Shown: positions 11,660 through 60,647 of the stretch, in pieces | Layout: each line of letters begins with the position of its first letter | How positions within the stretch are numbered: the first letter of the stretch is position 1 | DNA from: Candidatus Nomurabacteria bacterium | Lineage (GTDB): Bacteria; Patescibacteriota; Patescibacteriia; HK-STAS-PATE-3 | Reading direction: 5' to 3' | DNA: 64,000 bases | NCBI GenBank assembly: GCA_023898465.1 | Contig: CP060223.1 | Span: 576,001-640,000 of the forward strand | Position numbers and translations under genes: made by a program | The notes under the pieces: model-generated | The model's input: the letters and a program-made list of their open reading frames with translations, nothing else | What the model was told of the DNA's origin: nothing | Database searches by the model: none

Positions 11660-12103
11660 TTAGACACCGATTTCACCAAGCGCCTCGGCAATATCACCGC
11701 TGGACTTCTCGGTTTTGGTCTTATAAGCGGCCCAAGCAGTTTCATCCCAGAGTTCCAGGCGGTTGTACAAGCCAGCTACCACTACCTTCTTCTTCATAGT
11801 GGCGTACTTGCGCAAGTAATCAGGCAACATGATGCGCCCCTGCTTATCAATCTCCACATCCATGGCCCCAGCCAGCATTAAGCGTGAAAAAGCGCGGGTG
11901 TTTGCTTGAGCAATTGGCAAATTCGCTAACTTGTCAGCTAACTTCTCCCACTCTTGTTGTGGATACAAGAAAAGACAGTTGTCCAAGCCTCGGGTGACGA
12001 CTGCCCCTTTGCTGAGTGCTTCACGGAATTTTCGAGGTACTGCGAGGCGACCTTTTTCATCAATCGCGTGGTAGTACTCTCCGATAAACATGCTGGTGGT
12101 CAT
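11660..12103 (-). CDS. mraZ: Transcriptional regulator MraZ
   Basis: Tandem MraZ repeats. N-terminus MFIGEYYHAIDEKGRLAVPRKFRE (DxxGR motif). First gene of the dcw cluster. Confidence 0.85.
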   Translation of the reverse strand: MTTSMFIGEYYHAIDEKGRLAVPRKFREALSKGAVVTRGLDNCLFLYPQQEWEKLADKLANLPIAQANTRAFSRLMLAGAMDVEIDKQGRIMLPDYLRKYATMKKKVVVAGLYNRLELWDETAWAAYKTKTEKSSGDIAEALGEIGV

Positions 12104-12119
12104 TTCTGGCTTTTTTCGT

Positions 12120-12303
12120 TATCCACATTAGGGAAGGGTTATCCCCACATTTATCCACTTCTCACCCTTCTTTAACCATTTTACCCCACTTCCTGGTTTT
12201 CGTCAACCACTTTAAAAACCACAAGAATTAGGCGTATTGGTCAAGAAAATGGTGAAATAGCACAATTTCAAGAAATAACGTTACACTTAGGCACTTCCCC
12301 ACT
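12120..12303 (-). promoter_or_regulatory. mraZ leader with GTGG(G) direct repeats (putative MraZ boxes), also matching the DnaA-box consensus TTATCCACA, plus a TTGACG-17-TAAAAT promoter
   Basis: Plus-strand TTATCCACA at 12120-12128, TTATCCCCACA at 12140-12150, TTATCCACT at 12152-12160, CCCCACT at 12184-12190 and 12297-12303. On the mraZ strand these read (A/T)GTGG(G)GATAA. The promoter (reverse complement) is gtggTTGACGaaaaccaggaagtggggTAAAAT. Confidence 0.45.
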
Positions 12304-12421
12304 TCGACCTCAGGAAGATGTACGTCAAAAATGACAAACTTGACCTTTTGCTGAGCCTTTGTAAACTGCCGACACTAAGGAATTCTTTGCACTTTCACAA
12401 TCTACTAGGAGGAGAGCGACA

Positions 12422-14323
12422 ATGTGCGGGATTATTGGGTACACGGGAAGCCGGTCGGCTCTCCCCCTCTTGTTTGAAGGGATTGAAAGTCTGCAACACC
12501 GGGGTTACGACTCTGGTGGGGTGGGACTACAAACAGACAGCAGCTTGACCCTGATTCGAGCTCTGGGAAAGCCTGAAAACCTCAGCAGTAAGCTGGAGGA
12601 AAGAGGGCACTGGAACCCTCAGAGTCCTGCGATGCGGTCACGCTGTGGCATCGGCCACACACGTTGGGCTACGCACGGTGAACCATCGGTCGTCAACGCA
12701 CATCCACACGCGTCGCGGGATGGCCACTATGCAGTGGTGCACAATGGGACAATCGACAACTTGGAAGCGATCCGAAAACAACTGTTAACCTGGCTGCCTG
12801 GCTTGGAGCTTTTCTCCGAAACTGATACCGAGCTACTCGCTCATATGGTCATGTACTTTGTTGATAAAGAACATGATCTGATCAGAGCAGTCCAGCTCAC
12901 CGGGTGCCTGATTGAGGGGGCAAACGCCTTCGCGGTCATATCAAGCAGAAACCCTGGATGTATTGCGGCCTTCCGTCGCGGTAGCCCGCTCTTGTTTGCT
13001 AAACTCGAGCACGGCTATCTCTTGGCTTCTGACCAGGCTGCTATCCTTCCTCACAGTTCCAGCTACAGCTGGCTCGAGGATGGTGATGTCCTCTTCTTGA
13101 GTCCGGATGAAGATCCGCGAGTTCTGGATGCTGACGACTACGATGTGGTACGGGAAAGCATCAATATCGAGGAGAGCATGCGCCAGAGTAGTCGAGGAGA
13201 TCACCCTCACTTCATGCTCGCCGAGATCATGGGACAACCCGTAACGATTCAACGGACCATCGAGGGACGAATTCAAGACGGAGGAAAGCCGCTGATCAGG
13301 CTCGGCGGCATGATCGACATCCGTGAATGGGTAGGACATGATCTGTCTGAGATACTTTTGACAGGATGTGGCACGTCCTGGTTTGCAGCTCAAGTGGGAA
13401 AGCGATGGCTAAACCAGCTCGGCTTCCGGGCTGAGGCACCCCTAGCTTCGGAGCTCTTCCGAAGCTTCCAGGGTGTTGATCGAGGCACGCTAGTCATCCC
13501 CTTCTCACAGTCCGGAGAAACCCATGACACCAATCAAGCGGTCAAGTGGGTCAAGGAGCGGGACGCGAAAGTCTGGAGTATCTGCAACGTGGTTGGATCA
13601 GCACTTACTCGCATGAGTAATGCTGGTATGTACCTGAGAGTTGGCCAGGAGACCGGAGTGGCCTCCACTAAGGCCTTCACCAGCCAAGTCGTCGCAGCGA
13701 CTTTGACCGGGCTAGCGCTCGTCCAAGAACGCGAGCCCGACAGACTTCACACTCCTGAGATCAAGGCTGTGATTCAGGCGATTCTGGATTTGCCTCGGCA
13801 GATTCAGAACGTGCTTGATCAAGCAGCGAAGATCCGAGAAGTTGCTGAATCCATTGCATCAAGCACCGGGGCCTACTTCCTGGGTACTGGCTATAGTCTT
13901 TGCGCAGCACGTGAAGGCGCTCTCAAGCTCAAGGAGATTTCCTATATTCATGCCGAGGCCTATCCGGTCGCGGAAATGAAACACGGGCCCATCGCCTTGA
14001 TCGACGAGAACATGCCAGTGATCTTCGTGGCCGTGGATGAAGGAGGACCCAAAGAATGGGCCCAGAGCCTTGGAAGCAACATCAGCGAGGTTCGTGCTCG
14101 AAAGGGCCAGATCATCGTGATTGCGGAAGAGGACTCCGAGCTCGCTGGCACAATTCTCAGTGAGGGCTCTGGTCAGGTACTGTACACTCCCAAGACCGTT
14201 GGTGTACTCACGCCTGTGCTGAGTGCCGTCGTCATGCAGCTCCTGGCCTACTACGCTGCAGCTGAGTTGGGACGCGAGATCGATCAACCTCGCAACTTGG
14301 CCAAAGTGGTCACCGTAGCCTAA
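12422..14323 (+). CDS. glmS: Glutamine--fructose-6-phosphate aminotransferase (isomerising)
   Basis: MCGIIGY (catalytic Cys2). Two SIS domains. 633 aa. RBS AGGAGG upstream. Confidence 0.92.
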   Translation: MCGIIGYTGSRSALPLLFEGIESLQHRGYDSGGVGLQTDSSLTLIRALGKPENLSSKLEERGHWNPQSPAMRSRCGIGHTRWATHGEPSVVNAHPHASRDGHYAVVHNGTIDNLEAIRKQLLTWLPGLELFSETDTELLAHMVMYFVDKEHDLIRAVQLTGCLIEGANAFAVISSRNPGCIAAFRRGSPLLFAKLEHGYLLASDQAAILPHSSSYSWLEDGDVLFLSPDEDPRVLDADDYDVVRESINIEESMRQSSRGDHPHFMLAEIMGQPVTIQRTIEGRIQDGGKPLIRLGGMIDIREWVGHDLSEILLTGCGTSWFAAQVGKRWLNQLGFRAEAPLASELFRSFQGVDRGTLVIPFSQSGETHDTNQAVKWVKERDAKVWSICNVVGSALTRMSNAGMYLRVGQETGVASTKAFTSQVVAATLTGLALVQEREPDRLHTPEIKAVIQAILDLPRQIQNVLDQAAKIREVAESIASSTGAYFLGTGYSLCAAREGALKLKEISYIHAEAYPVAEMKHGPIALIDENMPVIFVAVDEGGPKEWAQSLGSNISEVRARKGQIIVIAEEDSELAGTILSEGSGQVLYTPKTVGVLTPVLSAVVMQLLAYYAAAELGREIDQPRNLAKVVTVA

Positions 14324-43118: not shown

Positions 43119-43195
43119 TGGTCGGGGTGGGGAGACTCGAACTCCCGACCTCAGCGACCCGAACGCTGCGCGCTAGCCAACTGCGCTACACCCCG
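43119..43195 (-). tRNA. tRNA-Pro (anticodon CGG), CCA encoded
   Basis: Reverse complement CGGGGTGTAGCGCAGTTGGCTAGCGCGCAGCGTTCGGGTCGCTGAGGTCGGGAGTTCGAGTCTCCCCACCCCGACCA. Anticodon loop UUCGGGU. Standard cloverleaf. Confidence 0.9.
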
Positions 43196-59494: not shown

Positions 59495-59568
59495 TGGCAG
59501 GGGCGGAAGGTGTCGAACCCTCGTTACCGGTTTTGGAGACCGGTGTTCTACCGTTGAACTACGCCCCC
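59495..59568 (-). tRNA. tRNA-Trp (anticodon CCA), CCA encoded
   Basis: Reverse complement GGGGGCGTAGTTCAACGGTAGAACACCGGTCTCCAAAACCGGTAACGAGGGTTCGACACCTTCCGCCCCTGCCA. Anticodon loop CUCCAAA. Confidence 0.9.
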
Positions 59569-59592
59569 ACAGATTCGTAGAATCAATGAAGA

Positions 59593-59748
59593 CTATTTTG
59601 TCTCTTTATGGAGAGTATGCTTTTTGCACCACTTACAGTGCTTTTTCATCTCAAGTCGACCTTTGAGGGTCTTCTTGTTTTTGAAGCTGTGATAGTTGGT
59701 GCGCTTGCACACCGTGCATTCCAGCTTAATAAGATTATCTTGGGACAT
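59593..59748 (-). CDS. rpmG: 50S ribosomal protein L33
   Basis: [51 protein letters not shown] matches the L33 pattern (C-x2-C...C-x2-C, KETK end). Absent from the supplied ORF track because it is 51 aa. Confidence 0.85.
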
Positions 59749-59787
59749 AGCAGTATATTATTTATGCGTATATTCTTGCCGACCGCC

Positions 59788-59863
59788 TGGAGCCGATGGT
59801 CGGATTCGAACCGACGACCTTCACTTTACAAAAGTGTTGCTCTACCAACTGAGCTACATCGGC
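59788..59863 (-). tRNA. tRNA-Thr (anticodon UGU), CCA encoded
   Basis: Reverse complement GCCGATGTAGCTCAGTTGGTAGAGCAACACTTTTGTAAAGTGAAGGTCGTCGGTTCGAATCCGACCATCGGCTCCA. Confidence 0.88.
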
Positions 59864-59880
59864 GCCCGGCGCTTGGCAAG

Positions 59881-60189
59881 TTATGAAAGCTCTAAGCGAG
59901 GAAAAATATCGATGGCTGGTTCTTCATAAGGGTGCGCCTGCTTCAACGCTATTATTACCTCCTCTACTTTTTCCTTATGACAGAGCATGCGAATCACTTC
60001 CTCTTCCACAATCTCTTCCTGACCAATCTCCCCTATGGCAGGATGCGCTCCCTCTTGCGGGATGAAACGTCCAGTAGTGCGATAGCTTCCACTACAGTGT
60101 GAATAGTTGCCCATCTTCCCTGCGCCAGCATCACCCATTGCCTTACGAACTGCATCAGCTTGGGGCACTGGCACCGAGGTGCGAATCAT
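59881..60189 (-). CDS. Hypothetical small protein (about 103 aa), occupying the position where tuf sits in the conserved Thr-Tyr-(Gly)-Thr-tuf-rpmG-Trp-secE arrangement
   Basis: MIRTSVPVPQADAVRKAMGDAGAGKMGNY...HPYEEPAIDIFPRLE. Start chosen at the internal Met because the longer ORF N-terminus is encoded by RNA element B. Confidence 0.4.
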   Translation of the reverse strand: MIRTSVPVPQADAVRKAMGDAGAGKMGNYSHCSGSYRTTGRFIPQEGAHPAIGEIGQEEIVEEEVIRMLCHKEKVEEVIIALKQAHPYEEPAIDIFPRLELS

Positions 60190-60220
60190 AACGTATTCTG
60201 ATTCTTGAAGTGACATAAGG

Positions 60221-60456
60221 AATAGAGTGCAAACGCCGAAGACTTGGGATTTTTGGGGCTCCATTTGAAACCAAGGATCTCGAGCCTGTCGAAAGAGACT
60301 GTTTCAAATGAGGAAAGGGACATGCGCCGTAAGGGCTTTCAAACGCCGAGCGCTTGGGCCGACAGGTTAAGTGCGAGGCGTAAAGGCACACGCTGGCAAA
60401 GGGTGGAGTGTTCTCGTTTTAACGAGGACACGCAACCCGCAGCCAGCGATGGGCCG
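60221..60456 (-). ncRNA. Conserved structured RNA element, copy B. Immediately 3' of tRNA-Tyr and 5' of the small hypothetical gene.
   Basis: See copy A. Contains an extra roughly 45-nt insertion carrying a third copy of the CCCAAG..TCGGCGTTTG motif. Small hairpin CUCGUU-AAAA-CGAG covaries with GACAA-CAAA-UUGUC in A. Confidence 0.5.
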
Positions 60457-60543
60457 TGGTGGGCCGGGTAGGATTCGAACCTACGAAGGCGCAAGGCCAG
60501 CAGATTTACAGTCTGCCCCCGTTGACCGCTTGGGTACCGACCC
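60457..60543 (-). tRNA. tRNA-Tyr (anticodon GUA) with long variable arm, CCA encoded
   Basis: Reverse complement GGGTCGGTACCCAAGCGGTCAACGGGGGCAGACTGTAAATCTGCTGGCCTTGCGCCTTCGTAGGTTCGAATCCTACCCGGCCCACCA. Confidence 0.9.
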
Positions 60544-60571
60544 TCATGTGAGGAAATGATCTCACCACTCC

Positions 60572-60647
60572 TGGAGCCGATGAGCGGATTTGAACCGCTG
60601 ACCTACTCCTTACCATGGAGTTGCTCTACCAACTGAGCTACATCGGC
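60572..60647 (-). tRNA. tRNA-Thr (anticodon GGU), CCA encoded
   Basis: Reverse complement GCCGATGTAGCTCAGTTGGTAGAGCAACTCCATGGTAAGGAGTAGGTCAGCGGTTCAAATCCGCTCATCGGCTCCA. 5' half identical to the other tRNA-Thr. Confidence 0.88.

What the first reader, a model, noticed from the sequence alone, without database searches (positions are those of the whole stretch)
12104..12310. mraZ leader carries GTGG(G) direct repeats that are also near-perfect DnaA boxes
Downstream of a TTGACG-17-TAAAAT promoter and before the mraZ ATG, the transcribed strand reads AGTGGATAA-a-TGTGGGGATAA...TGTGGATAA. Further GTGGGG copies lie upstream. E. coli and Bacillus MraZ bind short GTGG(G)-type direct repeats in their own promoters, so this is probably the autoregulatory operator. 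The same sequences equal the DnaA-box consensus TTATCCACA, perfect at 12120-12128 and with one change at 12152-12160. This raises the possibility of DnaA input into dcw transcription.
Basis: partly seen in the sequence, partly recalled or inferred. Interest (0 to 1): 0.5.

Follow-up and report, generated by a model that had tools for sequence, protein, structure and literature searches.

The report
MraZ operator with embedded DnaA boxes
The stretch in front of the cell-division regulator gene mraZ in this candidate-phyla-radiation bacterium is a conserved control region built from evenly spaced GTGG boxes (the known MraZ self-repression site), and it also holds a perfect DnaA-type 9-mer that relatives conserve as a separate class of site, which suggests but does not prove that the replication initiator also controls division genes.

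Summary
mraZ (11660-12091, minus) follows a TTGACG-17-TAAAAT promoter. Six GTGG boxes on the mraZ sense strand fall on one 10.5-bp lattice across the promoter and leader.

The core GTGGATAAATGTGGGGATAA is the only GTGG-N6-GTGG in 64 kb. It recurs upstream of mraZ in 66 of 81 Patescibacteria species. In an unbiased metagenome scan of the 20-mer, 101 of 111 informative hits sat directly upstream of mraZ. The architecture matches the characterised MraZ operators of E. coli, B. subtilis and Mycoplasma, so autorepression by MraZ is well supported.

The DnaA idea is better supported than expected. The perfect TTATCCACA (12119-12127) is conserved at a fixed +22 offset, and it varies most at DnaA-box positions 9, 5 and 3. 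Positions 5 and 3 are the degenerate ones in the published consensus. Relatives, though not this window, carry isolated perfect TTATCCACA 9-mers upstream of the promoter, mostly inverted, at 58-80 times the background rate. These sites differ from the MraZ boxes at position 9.

No binding data exist, and the DnaA specificity of this phylum could not be checked.

Verdict: MraZ operator, about 0.85. Additional DnaA input in this window, about 0.5.

The parts
11660..12091 (-). mraZ coding sequence (143 aa). The open frame extends to an upstream ATG at 12103, but homologs start at MFIGEY.
   Evidence: Pfam PF02381 with two stretches, E=6e-42. 100% identical to an NCBI 'Candidatus Nomurabacteria' MraZ of 143 aa. 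Aligns to solved Mycoplasma MraZ with D11, K13, R15 and the second DxxxR motif kept.
12201..12206 (-). -35 hexamer TTGACG of the predicted mraZ promoter
   Evidence: Consensus scan, 10 of 12 matches. TTGAC occurs at the same offset from box 2 (-58/-57) in 26 of 49 relatives.
12178..12183 (-). -10 hexamer TAAAAT. The predicted transcription start is near 12171 (inferred, not measured).
   Evidence: TA.AAT occurs at -35/-34 from box 2 in 36 of 49 relatives, followed by a conserved GG.
12219..12222 (-). GTGG at lattice position -74, upstream of the -35. In many relatives an inverted TTATCCACA occupies this position instead.
12207..12210 (-). GTGG abutting the -35 (GTGGTTGAC), lattice position -62
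   Evidence: Unique in the window. GTGG is at -62 in 12 of 49 relatives.
12184..12189 (-). GTGGGG abutting the -10, lattice position -41
   Evidence: GTGGNNTAWAAT is unique in the window. GTGG is at -41/-40 in 35 of 49 relatives.
12165..12168 (-). Degenerate box 0 (AGGG), lattice position -20. It is a full GTGG in 15 of 49 relatives.
12151..12159 (-). Box 1, AGTGGATAA (MraZ box). As a DnaA box it reads TTATCCACT, one mismatch at position 9.
12139..12148 (-). Box 2, GTGGGGATAA (MraZ box), exactly 10 nt after box 1. Read as a DnaA box, the overlapping 9-mer TGGGGATAA (12139-12147) is TTATCCCCA, one mismatch at position 7.
   Evidence: The shifted 9-mer TGGGGATAA is present in 36 of the 49 relatives whose box 2 is GTGGGG.
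12119..12127 (-). Box 3, TGTGGATAA, which is the perfect DnaA-box consensus TTATCCACA on the + strand. It lies 22 nt after box 2, in the transcribed leader at about +45.
   Evidence: Only perfect match in 64 kb. In relatives a site with at most one mismatch to TGTGNATAA is at offset +22 in 28 of 33 loci. 39 of 88 metagenome loci are perfect. Lowest information content is at DnaA positions 9, 5 and 3.
12297..12305 (-). Distal GAAGTGGGG, an exact 9-nt repeat of 12184-12192. It is out of phase with the lattice, and its function is unknown.

Best explanation
This is the control region of the mraZ-rsmH-ftsL-ftsI (dcw) operon of a Patescibacteria (CPR) bacterium. Two layers of sites are superimposed.

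Layer 1, well supported. GTGG boxes form a one-sided array with a period of about 10.5 bp. They lie at -74, -62, -41, (-20 degenerate), -10, 0 and +22 relative to box 2. The strict core is GTGGATAAAT-GTGGGGATAA, immediately downstream of the -10. This is the MraZ operator. Oligomeric MraZ, reading one TG(G/T) per major groove through K13/R15/R86, would occupy the boxes cooperatively. That occupancy covers the -35, the -10 and the start site, and represses its own operon.

Layer 2, inferred with moderate support. The 9-mer at 12119-12127, and the weaker boxes 1 and 2, belong to a second class of site with the sequence and degeneracy of the DnaA box TT(A/T)TNCACA. DnaA bound at about +45 would add a replication-status input to dcw transcription. 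In relatives, a second inverted box lies just upstream of the -35. Repression or modulation of MraZ occupancy is the most likely effect.

Shown here: sequence, conservation, position, phasing and site statistics.

Inferred: the transcription start, binding by MraZ, binding by DnaA, and the sign of regulation.
For: MraZ layer:
- The protein is a bona fide MraZ with its DNA-contact residues kept.
- GTGG-N6-GTGG is unique in the window. It occurs upstream of mraZ in 66 of 81 species, against 5 per 694 kb elsewhere.
- Most of the remaining loci carry a variant, GGTGaaaaGTGGGGaatagaGGTG.
- An unbiased 20-mer scan finds mraZ downstream in 101 of 111 hits.
- GTGG positions in 49 loci pile up at -62, -52, -41, -20, -10, 0, +10 and +22. 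All six window boxes lie within 1 nt of that lattice, on one strand only.
- E. coli Pmra has the same order: promoter, then three GTGGG boxes at a 10-nt period, then mraZ.
- Published work describes GTG(G/T) boxes with 6-nt spacers and cooperative multi-box binding.

DnaA layer:
- Box 3 is at a fixed +22 offset. It is perfect to TTATNCACA in 16 of 49 species loci and 39 of 88 metagenome loci.
- Box 3 variants are GTGC, GTGT and GACAA, and its lowest information content is at DnaA positions 9, 5 and 3.
- Isolated perfect TTATCCACA upstream of the operator occurs at 1.51 per kb against 0.026 per kb background (0.135 per kb in other intergenic DNA). It is mostly in the inverted orientation, 25:5.
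- This was replicated in the metagenome set at 1.0 against 0.012 per kb.
- Among one-mismatch sites, mismatches favour positions 3, 5 and 9 and avoid positions 4 and 8.
- Upstream 9-mers have A at position 9 in 30 of 36 cases. Box 1 has it in 2 of 27. Fisher p = 8e-10.
- The perfect 9-mer persists in lineages whose MraZ boxes lack the ATAA tail.
- The same 20-mer occurs inside a tandem DnaA-box-like array with no mraZ, in a Firmicutes-like ydiF/moaC locus.
- E. coli MraZ is reported to bind a site overlapping the mioC promoter DnaA box.
Against: - No binding or expression data exist for either protein in this organism.
- The window itself lacks the upstream inverted 9-mer seen in relatives. 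Its DnaA case therefore rests on box 3 plus two one-mismatch boxes.
- Box 3 also sits on the GTGG lattice (+22 against an ideal +21), so MraZ alone could explain its position.
- E. coli's third MraZ box, GTGGGAATAA, also ends in ATAA. The ATAA tail of boxes 1 and 2 may therefore be an old MraZ-operator feature.
- The window has only two canonical consecutive boxes, where most described operators have three.
- The DnaA-box specificity of Patescibacteria DnaA could not be checked. No dnaA or oriC is in any sequence held, and no literature was found.
- The loci are related, so the counts are not fully independent.
Confidence: 0.5

Rival explanations
1. MraZ only. Every box, including box 3 and the upstream 9-mers of relatives, is a MraZ site. 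In this clade MraZ, or DNA bending around its ring, prefers GTGGATAA. The identity with the DnaA box is coincidental.
For: - All window boxes lie on one 10.5-bp lattice, including box 3.
- Boxes 1 and 2 share the ATAA tail, and so does E. coli's third MraZ box GTGGGAATAA.
- In many relatives the CCAC core of the inverted box next to the -35 falls at about -73, which is a lattice position.
- MraZ tolerates altered spacing at high concentration.
Against: - Known MraZ sites are same-orientation direct repeats read through only 3-4 bases.
- Isolated, inverted, perfect 9-mers at variable distances (-64 to -290) are not expected from that binding mode.
- Box 3 tolerates GTGC, which breaks the TG(G/T) contact.
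- Upstream 9-mers and box 1 differ sharply at position 9, p = 8e-10.
- The 9-mer stays perfect in lineages whose MraZ boxes have lost ATAA.
Confidence: 0.3
2. MraZ operator plus a second, unidentified transcription factor (not DnaA) that reads the TTATCCACA 9-mer in Patescibacteria.
For: - The 9-mer class is statistically distinct from the MraZ boxes.
- It is about ten times more frequent in intergenic than in coding DNA of these loci, as expected for a regulator site.
- DnaA specificity in this phylum is untested.
Against: - The 9-mer equals the near-universal bacterial DnaA box. Its tolerated mismatch positions include 3 and 5, the degenerate positions of TT(A/T)TNCACA (consensus from established knowledge).
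- No alternative reader of this sequence is known.
Confidence: 0.12
3. A DnaA-box cluster only, acting as a titration or regulatory site, with no role for MraZ.
For: - Three boxes with at most one mismatch lie within 41 bp on one strand.
- The same 20-mer lies in a DnaA-box-like array without mraZ in L160.
Against: - The strict GTGG-N6-GTGG phasing is kept in lineages without any DnaA-like tail, for example GTGGTGAAAAGTGGGGAATT.
- The link to mraZ is near-exclusive.
- The layout matches experimentally defined MraZ operators.
Confidence: 0.03
4. The conserved leader acts as RNA (a structured 5' UTR, riboswitch or attenuator), or the repeats are chance.
For: - Boxes 1-3 lie downstream of the predicted start and would be transcribed.
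- In the window a 12-nt imperfect inverted repeat flanks boxes 1-2.
Against: - RNAalifold on 27 aligned leaders predicts no pairs.
- The window leader folds no better than shuffles, z = +0.49.
- No Rfam family matches.
- Conservation is confined to the boxes, while the spacers vary.
- The chance expectations are far exceeded.
Confidence: 0.03

Closest known systems
E. coli Pmra / MraZ operator (Eraso et al. 2014, known to me; sequence read)
   Same: [quoted passage not shown] The last box, GTGGGAATAA, is 9 of 10 identical to box 2 here.
   Different: E. coli has three consecutive boxes starting about 7 nt after the -10. Here there are two strict consecutive boxes starting 19 nt after the -10, plus phased GTGG copies over the -35 and -10 and a displaced box at +22. 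No perfect DnaA 9-mer lies between the E. coli promoter and mraZ in the stretch read.
Mycoplasma genitalium MraZ-four-box complex (cryo-EM, PMC12957436) and the Mollicutes AAAGTG[T/G] site (cited in PMC8475190)
   Same: [quoted passage not shown] The transcription start lies at or near the first box. The protein contact residues K13, R15 and R86 are conserved in this MraZ.
   Different: Mycoplasma has four contiguous boxes, and no DnaA-like 9-mers are reported. The oligomeric state of the CPR protein is unknown.
Bacillus subtilis MraZ binding repeats (bioRxiv 10.1101/2022.02.09.479790)
   Same: Three GTGG[A/T]G repeats with 4-nt spacers (10-nt period) occur only at the mra promoter and are required for repression.
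   Different: The spacer sequence differs, and no ATAA tail or flanking 9-mers are described.
DnaA boxes acting as transcription-factor sites and DnaA-box clusters (E. coli dnaA and mioC promoters; B. subtilis DnaA-box clusters; Caulobacter DnaA-dependent ftsZ transcription; own knowledge apart from the mioC statement in PMC4446571)
   Same: The 9-mer consensus TTATCCACA is identical. Degeneracy at positions 3 and 5 is shared, boxes occur in both orientations next to a promoter, and there is precedent for MraZ and DnaA sites overlapping (mioC).
   Different: DnaA control of mraZ/dcw has not been described in the literature searched. The box here is embedded in a MraZ operator at a fixed helical offset. 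Binding is untested.

Membership tests
MraZ protein (PF02381, SpoVT/AbrB-like) | Two tandem MraZ/UPF0040 domains | tested here: met
   Pfam PF02381, two stretches, E=6e-42.
MraZ protein (PF02381, SpoVT/AbrB-like) | DNA-contact residues: DxxxR in both halves plus K13 | tested here: met
   The alignment to M. genitalium and M. pneumoniae MraZ chains keeps D11-x-K13-x-R15 and the second D-x-x-x-R. Their role is taken from PMC12957436.
MraZ operator | GTG(G/T) boxes in direct orientation separated by six bases (10-nt period) | tested here: met
   Box 1 at 12158 and box 2 at 12148 are exactly 10 nt apart. This spacing is invariant in 66 of 81 species loci.
MraZ operator | Three or more consecutive boxes | tested here: inconclusive
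   The window has two canonical consecutive boxes. The -20 position reads AGGG, which is a full GTGG in 15 of 49 relatives. Further GTGGs lie at -74, -62, -41 and +22 on the same helical face.
MraZ operator | [quoted passage not shown] | tested here: met
   It lies between TTGACG-17-TAAAAT and mraZ. mraZ-rsmH-(ftsL-like)-PBP follow. It is the only GTGG-N6-GTGG in 64 kb. 101 of 111 unbiased 20-mer hits precede mraZ. Only 64 kb of the genome was available.
MraZ operator | Bound by MraZ, with repression dependent on the boxes | not testable with these tools
   Needs EMSA, footprinting or a reporter assay.
DnaA box | 9-mer matching TT(A/T)TNCACA | tested here: met
   12119-12127 is a perfect TTATCCACA. 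12139-12147 and 12151-12159 each have one mismatch, at positions 7 and 9.
DnaA box | All nine positions under selection, with degeneracy at positions 3 and 5 | tested here: met
   Box 3 information content is lowest at positions 9, 5 and 3. One-mismatch upstream sites favour positions 3, 5 and 9 and avoid 4 and 8 relative to background. The flanks of the isolated 9-mers are not conserved.
DnaA box | Functions as an isolated site in either orientation | tested here: met
   Relatives carry 30 perfect isolated boxes in 19.9 kb upstream of the operator, 25 of them inverted. This was replicated. It is not met in the window itself, which has only the three same-strand boxes.
DnaA box | The organism's DnaA recognises this sequence (same boxes at its oriC or dnaA promoter) | not testable with these tools
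   No dnaA or oriC is in the window or in the 200 fetched loci. GC skew shows no origin in the window. No literature was found.
DnaA box | Bound by DnaA in vitro or in vivo | not testable with these tools
   Needs EMSA, footprinting, or ChIP- or DAP-seq.

The most novel reading that the evidence does not exclude
Across a class-level radiation of Patescibacteria, the dcw promoter is a shared MraZ/DnaA operator. High-affinity DnaA boxes in inverted orientation flank a phased MraZ array whose own boxes double as weak DnaA sites. DnaA-ATP level, which reflects replication-initiation status, and MraZ would then jointly set expression of division genes. This would be a minimal replication-division coupling circuit in organisms with very few regulators.
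Probability: 0.35. Interest if true: 0.7.

Novelty: new variant of a known kind. Interest (0 to 1): 0.5.

Why it matters
MraZ autoregulation of the dcw operon is known, so that part is an expected extension to an uncultivated phylum. It does show that the operator grammar (GTGG at a 10-nt period, placed after the promoter) is conserved from Proteobacteria and Firmicutes to the CPR.

The conserved DnaA-type 9-mers at this promoter are not described in the literature searched. If DnaA binds them, the replication initiator would feed directly into transcription of the cell-division and cell-wall operon. These bacteria have tiny genomes and few transcription factors, so the open question of how replication and division are coupled would gain a concrete molecular handle.

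The hypothesis is directly testable with two recombinant proteins and a 140-bp DNA fragment. The organism does not need to be cultured.

Tried and rejected
- RNA element. Rfam at gathering thresholds found nothing in the leader. RNAalifold on 27 leaders gave zero pairs. The window leader's fold energy was no better than shuffles. Rejected.
- Origin of replication nearby. Cumulative GC skew is monotonic over the 64 kb, so this is not oriC.
- Finding dnaA or oriC of a CPR genome to check its box sequence. The tools gave no route to a CPR DnaA sequence.
- Literature on DnaA boxes in Patescibacteria or CPR. None was found. The primary E. coli MraZ paper (PMC4010979) is not held, so its statements are taken from citing papers and from my own knowledge.
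- GTGG next to the -35 and -10 as a general promoter feature of this genome. Rejected, because each pattern occurs only at this promoter in 64 kb.
- Upstream 9-mers belonging to a conserved neighbouring gene. Rejected. The upstream genes differ (tsaB-like, response regulator, glmS, lexA-like and others), and 53 of 70 are co-directional with mraZ.
- A regulon hint from other intergenic perfect boxes. The neighbours were too few and too heterogeneous, one being a lexA-like gene. Not pursued.

Full report
**What is there**

The finding lies in the 318-bp intergenic region between mraZ on the minus strand and a divergent glmS at 12422-14323 on the plus strand. The mraZ ORF runs 11660-12103. Homologs are almost all 143 aa and start MFIGEY, so the real start is probably the ATG at 12091.

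Downstream on the minus strand are rsmH, a 119-aa ftsL-like ORF, a class B penicillin-binding protein and, further on, a Mur ligase. This is the 5' end of a dcw cluster.

The MraZ protein is 100% identical to one annotated in a 'Candidatus Nomurabacteria' MAG on a 1.08-Mb contig. It is 70-88% identical to MraZ from many Patescibacteria.

**Check of the observation**

Read on the minus strand, the region is:

TTGTGGTTTTTAAAGTGG-TTGACG-(17)-TAAAAT-GGTTAAAGAAGGGTGAGAA-GTGGATAAAT-GTGGGGATAA-CCCTTCCCTAA-TGTGGATAA-CGAAAAAAGCCAGAAATGACCACCAGC-ATG

The promoter-like site is confirmed at 12206-12178.

One-mismatch copies are at 12139-12147 and 12151-12159. The perfect copy is the only one in 64 kb.

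GTGG starts on the minus strand at 12302, 12222, 12210, 12189, 12158, 12148 and 12126. Six of these lie within 104 nt, against 3.05 per kb-strand in the window, and none lies on the other strand.

GTGG-N6-GTGG occurs once in the whole window, here.

**Comparative evidence for an operator**

I fetched mraZ loci from 80 species-level genome representatives. All are Patescibacteria, with labels including Kerfeld-, Buchanan-, Komeili-, Magasanik-, Uhr-, Falkow-, Veblen-, Torok-, Berkelbacteria and 'Saccharibacteria'.
- GTGG-N6-GTGG lies within 600 nt upstream of mraZ in 66 of 81 loci, counting the window. The rest of those loci hold 5 occurrences in 694 kb of strand-sequence.
- Most loci without it carry a variant, GGTGaaaaGTGGGGaatagaGGTG, behind the same promoter.

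Anchoring on box 2 gives this consensus: (GTGG)TTGAC - 17 - (aaGTGGtg)TAAAATGG - about 12 - aaGTGGATAAAAGTGGGGATAAg - 12 variable - tGTGGATAAc. Information content is high in the boxes and near zero in the spacers.

GTGG start positions pile up at -62, -52, -41, -20, -10, 0, +10 and +22. This is a 10.5-bp lattice on one face of the helix. The window's six boxes, at -74, -62, -41, -10, 0 and +22, all fall within 1 nt of that lattice. The GTGGs that abut the -35 and -10 are unique to this promoter in the window, so they are not a general promoter feature.

As an unbiased test I scanned public metagenomes for the 20-mer GTGGATAAANGTGGGGATAA.
- Of 111 hits with enough downstream sequence, 101 have mraZ on the same strand. 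The median distance is 56 nt.
- Seven exceptions are chance hits inside high-GC coding sequences.
- Two or three exceptions are GTGG- or DnaA-box-rich non-coding regions.

**Why this is a MraZ operator**

- There are three boxes in most bacteria and four in M. genitalium, where the boxes are bound cooperatively.
- One subunit reads TG(T/G) per major groove through K13, R15 and R86 (PMC12957436).
- B. subtilis has three GTGG[A/T]G repeats with 4-nt spacers, and they are needed for repression.
- Mollicutes use AAAGTG[T/G].

The E. coli Pmra sequence I read has the same layout: TTGACA-17-TAAACT-7-GTGGGaaattGTGGGgcaaaGTGGGaataa, then mraZ.

The window's MraZ has two PF02381 domains. It keeps D11, K13, R15 and the second DxxxR motif when aligned to the solved Mycoplasma proteins.

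The most likely mechanism is therefore cooperative binding of oligomeric MraZ to the phased boxes. That would occlude the -35, the -10 and the start site, and repress the operon. Binding, the start site and the sign of regulation are inferred, not shown.

**Is the DnaA-box resemblance meaningful?**

Boxes 1 and 2 behave as MraZ boxes.
- Box 1 is preceded by A in 78% of loci, giving AAGTGG as in Mollicutes. That is a mismatch at DnaA position 9.
- Box 2 carries a GG insertion.
- E. coli's third MraZ box also ends in ATAA.

Box 3 behaves differently.
- A site within one mismatch of TGTGNATAA sits at a fixed +22 offset in 28 of the 33 species loci that have such a site. It is perfect to TTATNCACA in 16 of 49 species loci and in 39 of 88 metagenome loci.
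- It is preceded by T in 59-76% of loci.
- It tolerates GTGC, GTGT and GACAA.
- Its lowest information content is at DnaA positions 9, 5 and 3. Positions 3 and 5 are the degenerate positions of the classical consensus TT(A/T)TNCACA (established knowledge).

Relatives also carry isolated perfect TTATCCACA 9-mers upstream of the operator, which I had not expected.
- There are 30 in 19.9 kb (1.51 per kb). Flanking sequence holds 0.026 per kb and other intergenic DNA 0.135 per kb.
- 25 of the 30 are in the orientation opposite to the boxes.
- They lie at variable distances, with a preferred position just upstream of the -35, and their flanks are not conserved.
- The metagenome set replicates this, at 1.0 against 0.012 per kb, with a cluster at -75 to -79.
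- TTATCCACA is among the most enriched 9-mers in an unbiased k-mer count.
- One-mismatch variants favour positions 3, 5 and 9 and avoid 4 and 8 relative to background.
- These 9-mers have A at position 9 in 30 of 36 cases, against 2 of 27 for box 1. Fisher p = 8e-10.
- They remain perfect in Magasanikbacteria-type loci whose MraZ boxes have no ATAA tail.
- The upstream genes differ between loci, so the 9-mers go with mraZ and not with a neighbour.

Isolated, inverted 18-bit sites are not what the MraZ binding mode predicts, since MraZ reads 3-4 bases per subunit on direct repeats. They are what a DnaA box looks like.

Two further leads point the same way. E. coli MraZ is reported to bind a site overlapping the mioC promoter DnaA box. 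The 20-mer also occurs inside a tandem DnaA-box-like array in a Firmicutes-like convergent ydiF/moaC intergenic region without mraZ. From memory, that region corresponds to a known B. subtilis DnaA-box cluster. I did not verify this.

**Limits**

- The window itself has no upstream inverted box. Its DnaA case rests on box 3 and two one-mismatch boxes.
- Box 3 is also on the MraZ lattice, so MraZ alone could explain its position.
- I could not obtain any CPR dnaA or oriC sequence to confirm that the phylum's DnaA uses the canonical box, and the literature held nothing on it.
- The loci are related, although the spacers have diverged to randomness.
- There are no binding or expression data.

I put the MraZ operator at about 0.85 and an additional functional DnaA input in this window at about 0.5. 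I put MraZ-only at 0.3 and an unknown 9-mer reader at about 0.12.

**Rejected alternatives**

- RNA leader element: no Rfam hit, no consensus pairs in 27 leaders, and fold energy no better than shuffles.
- Replication origin: GC skew is monotonic.
- Chance: the statistics above exclude it.

**Novelty and interest**

The MraZ operator is a new member of a known kind. It is expected, and its grammar is conserved from E. coli to the CPR. The conserved DnaA-type 9-mers at the dcw promoter were not found described in the literature searched. If they are bound by DnaA, they would make a new variant: a shared MraZ/DnaA operator linking replication initiation to division-gene transcription in minimal-genome bacteria. 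The hypothesis is cheaply testable in vitro. Interest 0.5.

Noticed in passing
L046, L052, L055, L056, L066, L079 (about 60-300 nt upstream of mraZ; e.g. L052:2240-2460): In a Falkowbacteria-like sublineage the operator is the variant GGTGaaaaGTGGGGaatagaGGTG. A 300-400-nt leader separates it from mraZ. The leader contains a conserved multi-hairpin element (GGCCAAGATAnTnAGCGCC hairpin and a long AGAAGGGGTCTGATAA...TTATCAGACTTCTC hairpin). RNAalifold predicts 34 pairs, 15 of them with compensatory changes, and no Rfam family matches. It may be an undescribed structured RNA in the mraZ 5' UTR.
   Followed up: partly
L160:3060-3200 (metagenome contig Ga0308176_10050719): The same 20-mer sits in a tandem array, TGTGGATAAAAGTGGGGATAACTGTGGATAATGTGGAAAA. 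The array lies just past the 3' end of an ABC-F ATPase gene (ydiF-like), which has a divergently oriented moaC on its other side. There is no mraZ. It looks like the Bacillus gcp-ydiF DnaA-box cluster (from memory, unverified).
   Followed up: partly
L167:300-700: A roughly 400-nt non-coding region rich in GTGG/GGGG motifs. It contains TGTGGATAACTATGTGGACAAC and GTGGATAAATGTGGGGATAAATGGAAGGGGTGAGAAGTGGGG, with no mraZ nearby. The neighbouring ORFs were not annotated. It could be an origin, an iteron array or a MraZ/DnaA decoy.
   Followed up: no
window 12092-12103: The longest mraZ ORF starts at the ATG at 12103 (147 aa), but about 95% of homologs are 143 aa and start at MFIGEY (12091). Neither start has an obvious Shine-Dalgarno sequence, and the same holds for most relatives.
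   Followed up: partly
window 12297-12305 and 12184-12192: Exact 9-nt direct repeat GAAGTGGGG (minus strand). The distal copy is 113 nt upstream of the promoter-proximal one and lies between the mraZ and glmS promoters. It is out of phase with the GTGG lattice, and its function is unknown.
   Followed up: no
L037, L045, L032 (about 115-130 nt upstream of box 2): In Magasanikbacteria-type loci the perfect TTATCCACA forms the 5' arm of a hairpin (TTATCCACAC...GTGTGGAT) followed by a T-run. It therefore overlaps what looks like the intrinsic terminator of the upstream gene.
   Followed up: no
L046, L052, L055, L066, L068, L070, L076, L079, L080 (directly after the upstream tsaB-like gene): A conserved TGTG(G/C/T)AT(T/A)AnnTGTTGA(A/C)AA motif follows the stop codon of the tsaB-like gene. 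Its first nine bases are a DnaA-box-like 9-mer with zero or one mismatch, in the same orientation as the operator boxes.
   Followed up: no
L029:1418 and L122:7929: A perfect TGTGGATAA lies in the intergenic region facing the 5' end of a lexA-like gene. It is one of the few perfect boxes outside the mraZ upstream region.
   Followed up: no
L039 and L050 (20-400 nt upstream of mraZ): A small ORF is inserted between the structured leader element and mraZ. It resembles the four-helix-bundle proteins found in 23S rRNA intervening sequences (my recollection, not tested).
   Followed up: no
window 43122-43195 and 59498-60647: Five tRNA genes on the minus strand, four of them clustered at 59.5-60.6 kb (Rfam).
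   Followed up: no
and tables: MraZ is unusually conserved across Patescibacteria, at 67-88% identity between differently named candidate phyla. This parallels the conservation of its operator. Many of the MAG records are labelled 'uncultured Gammaproteobacteria' although the sequences are clearly Patescibacteria-like.
   Followed up: no
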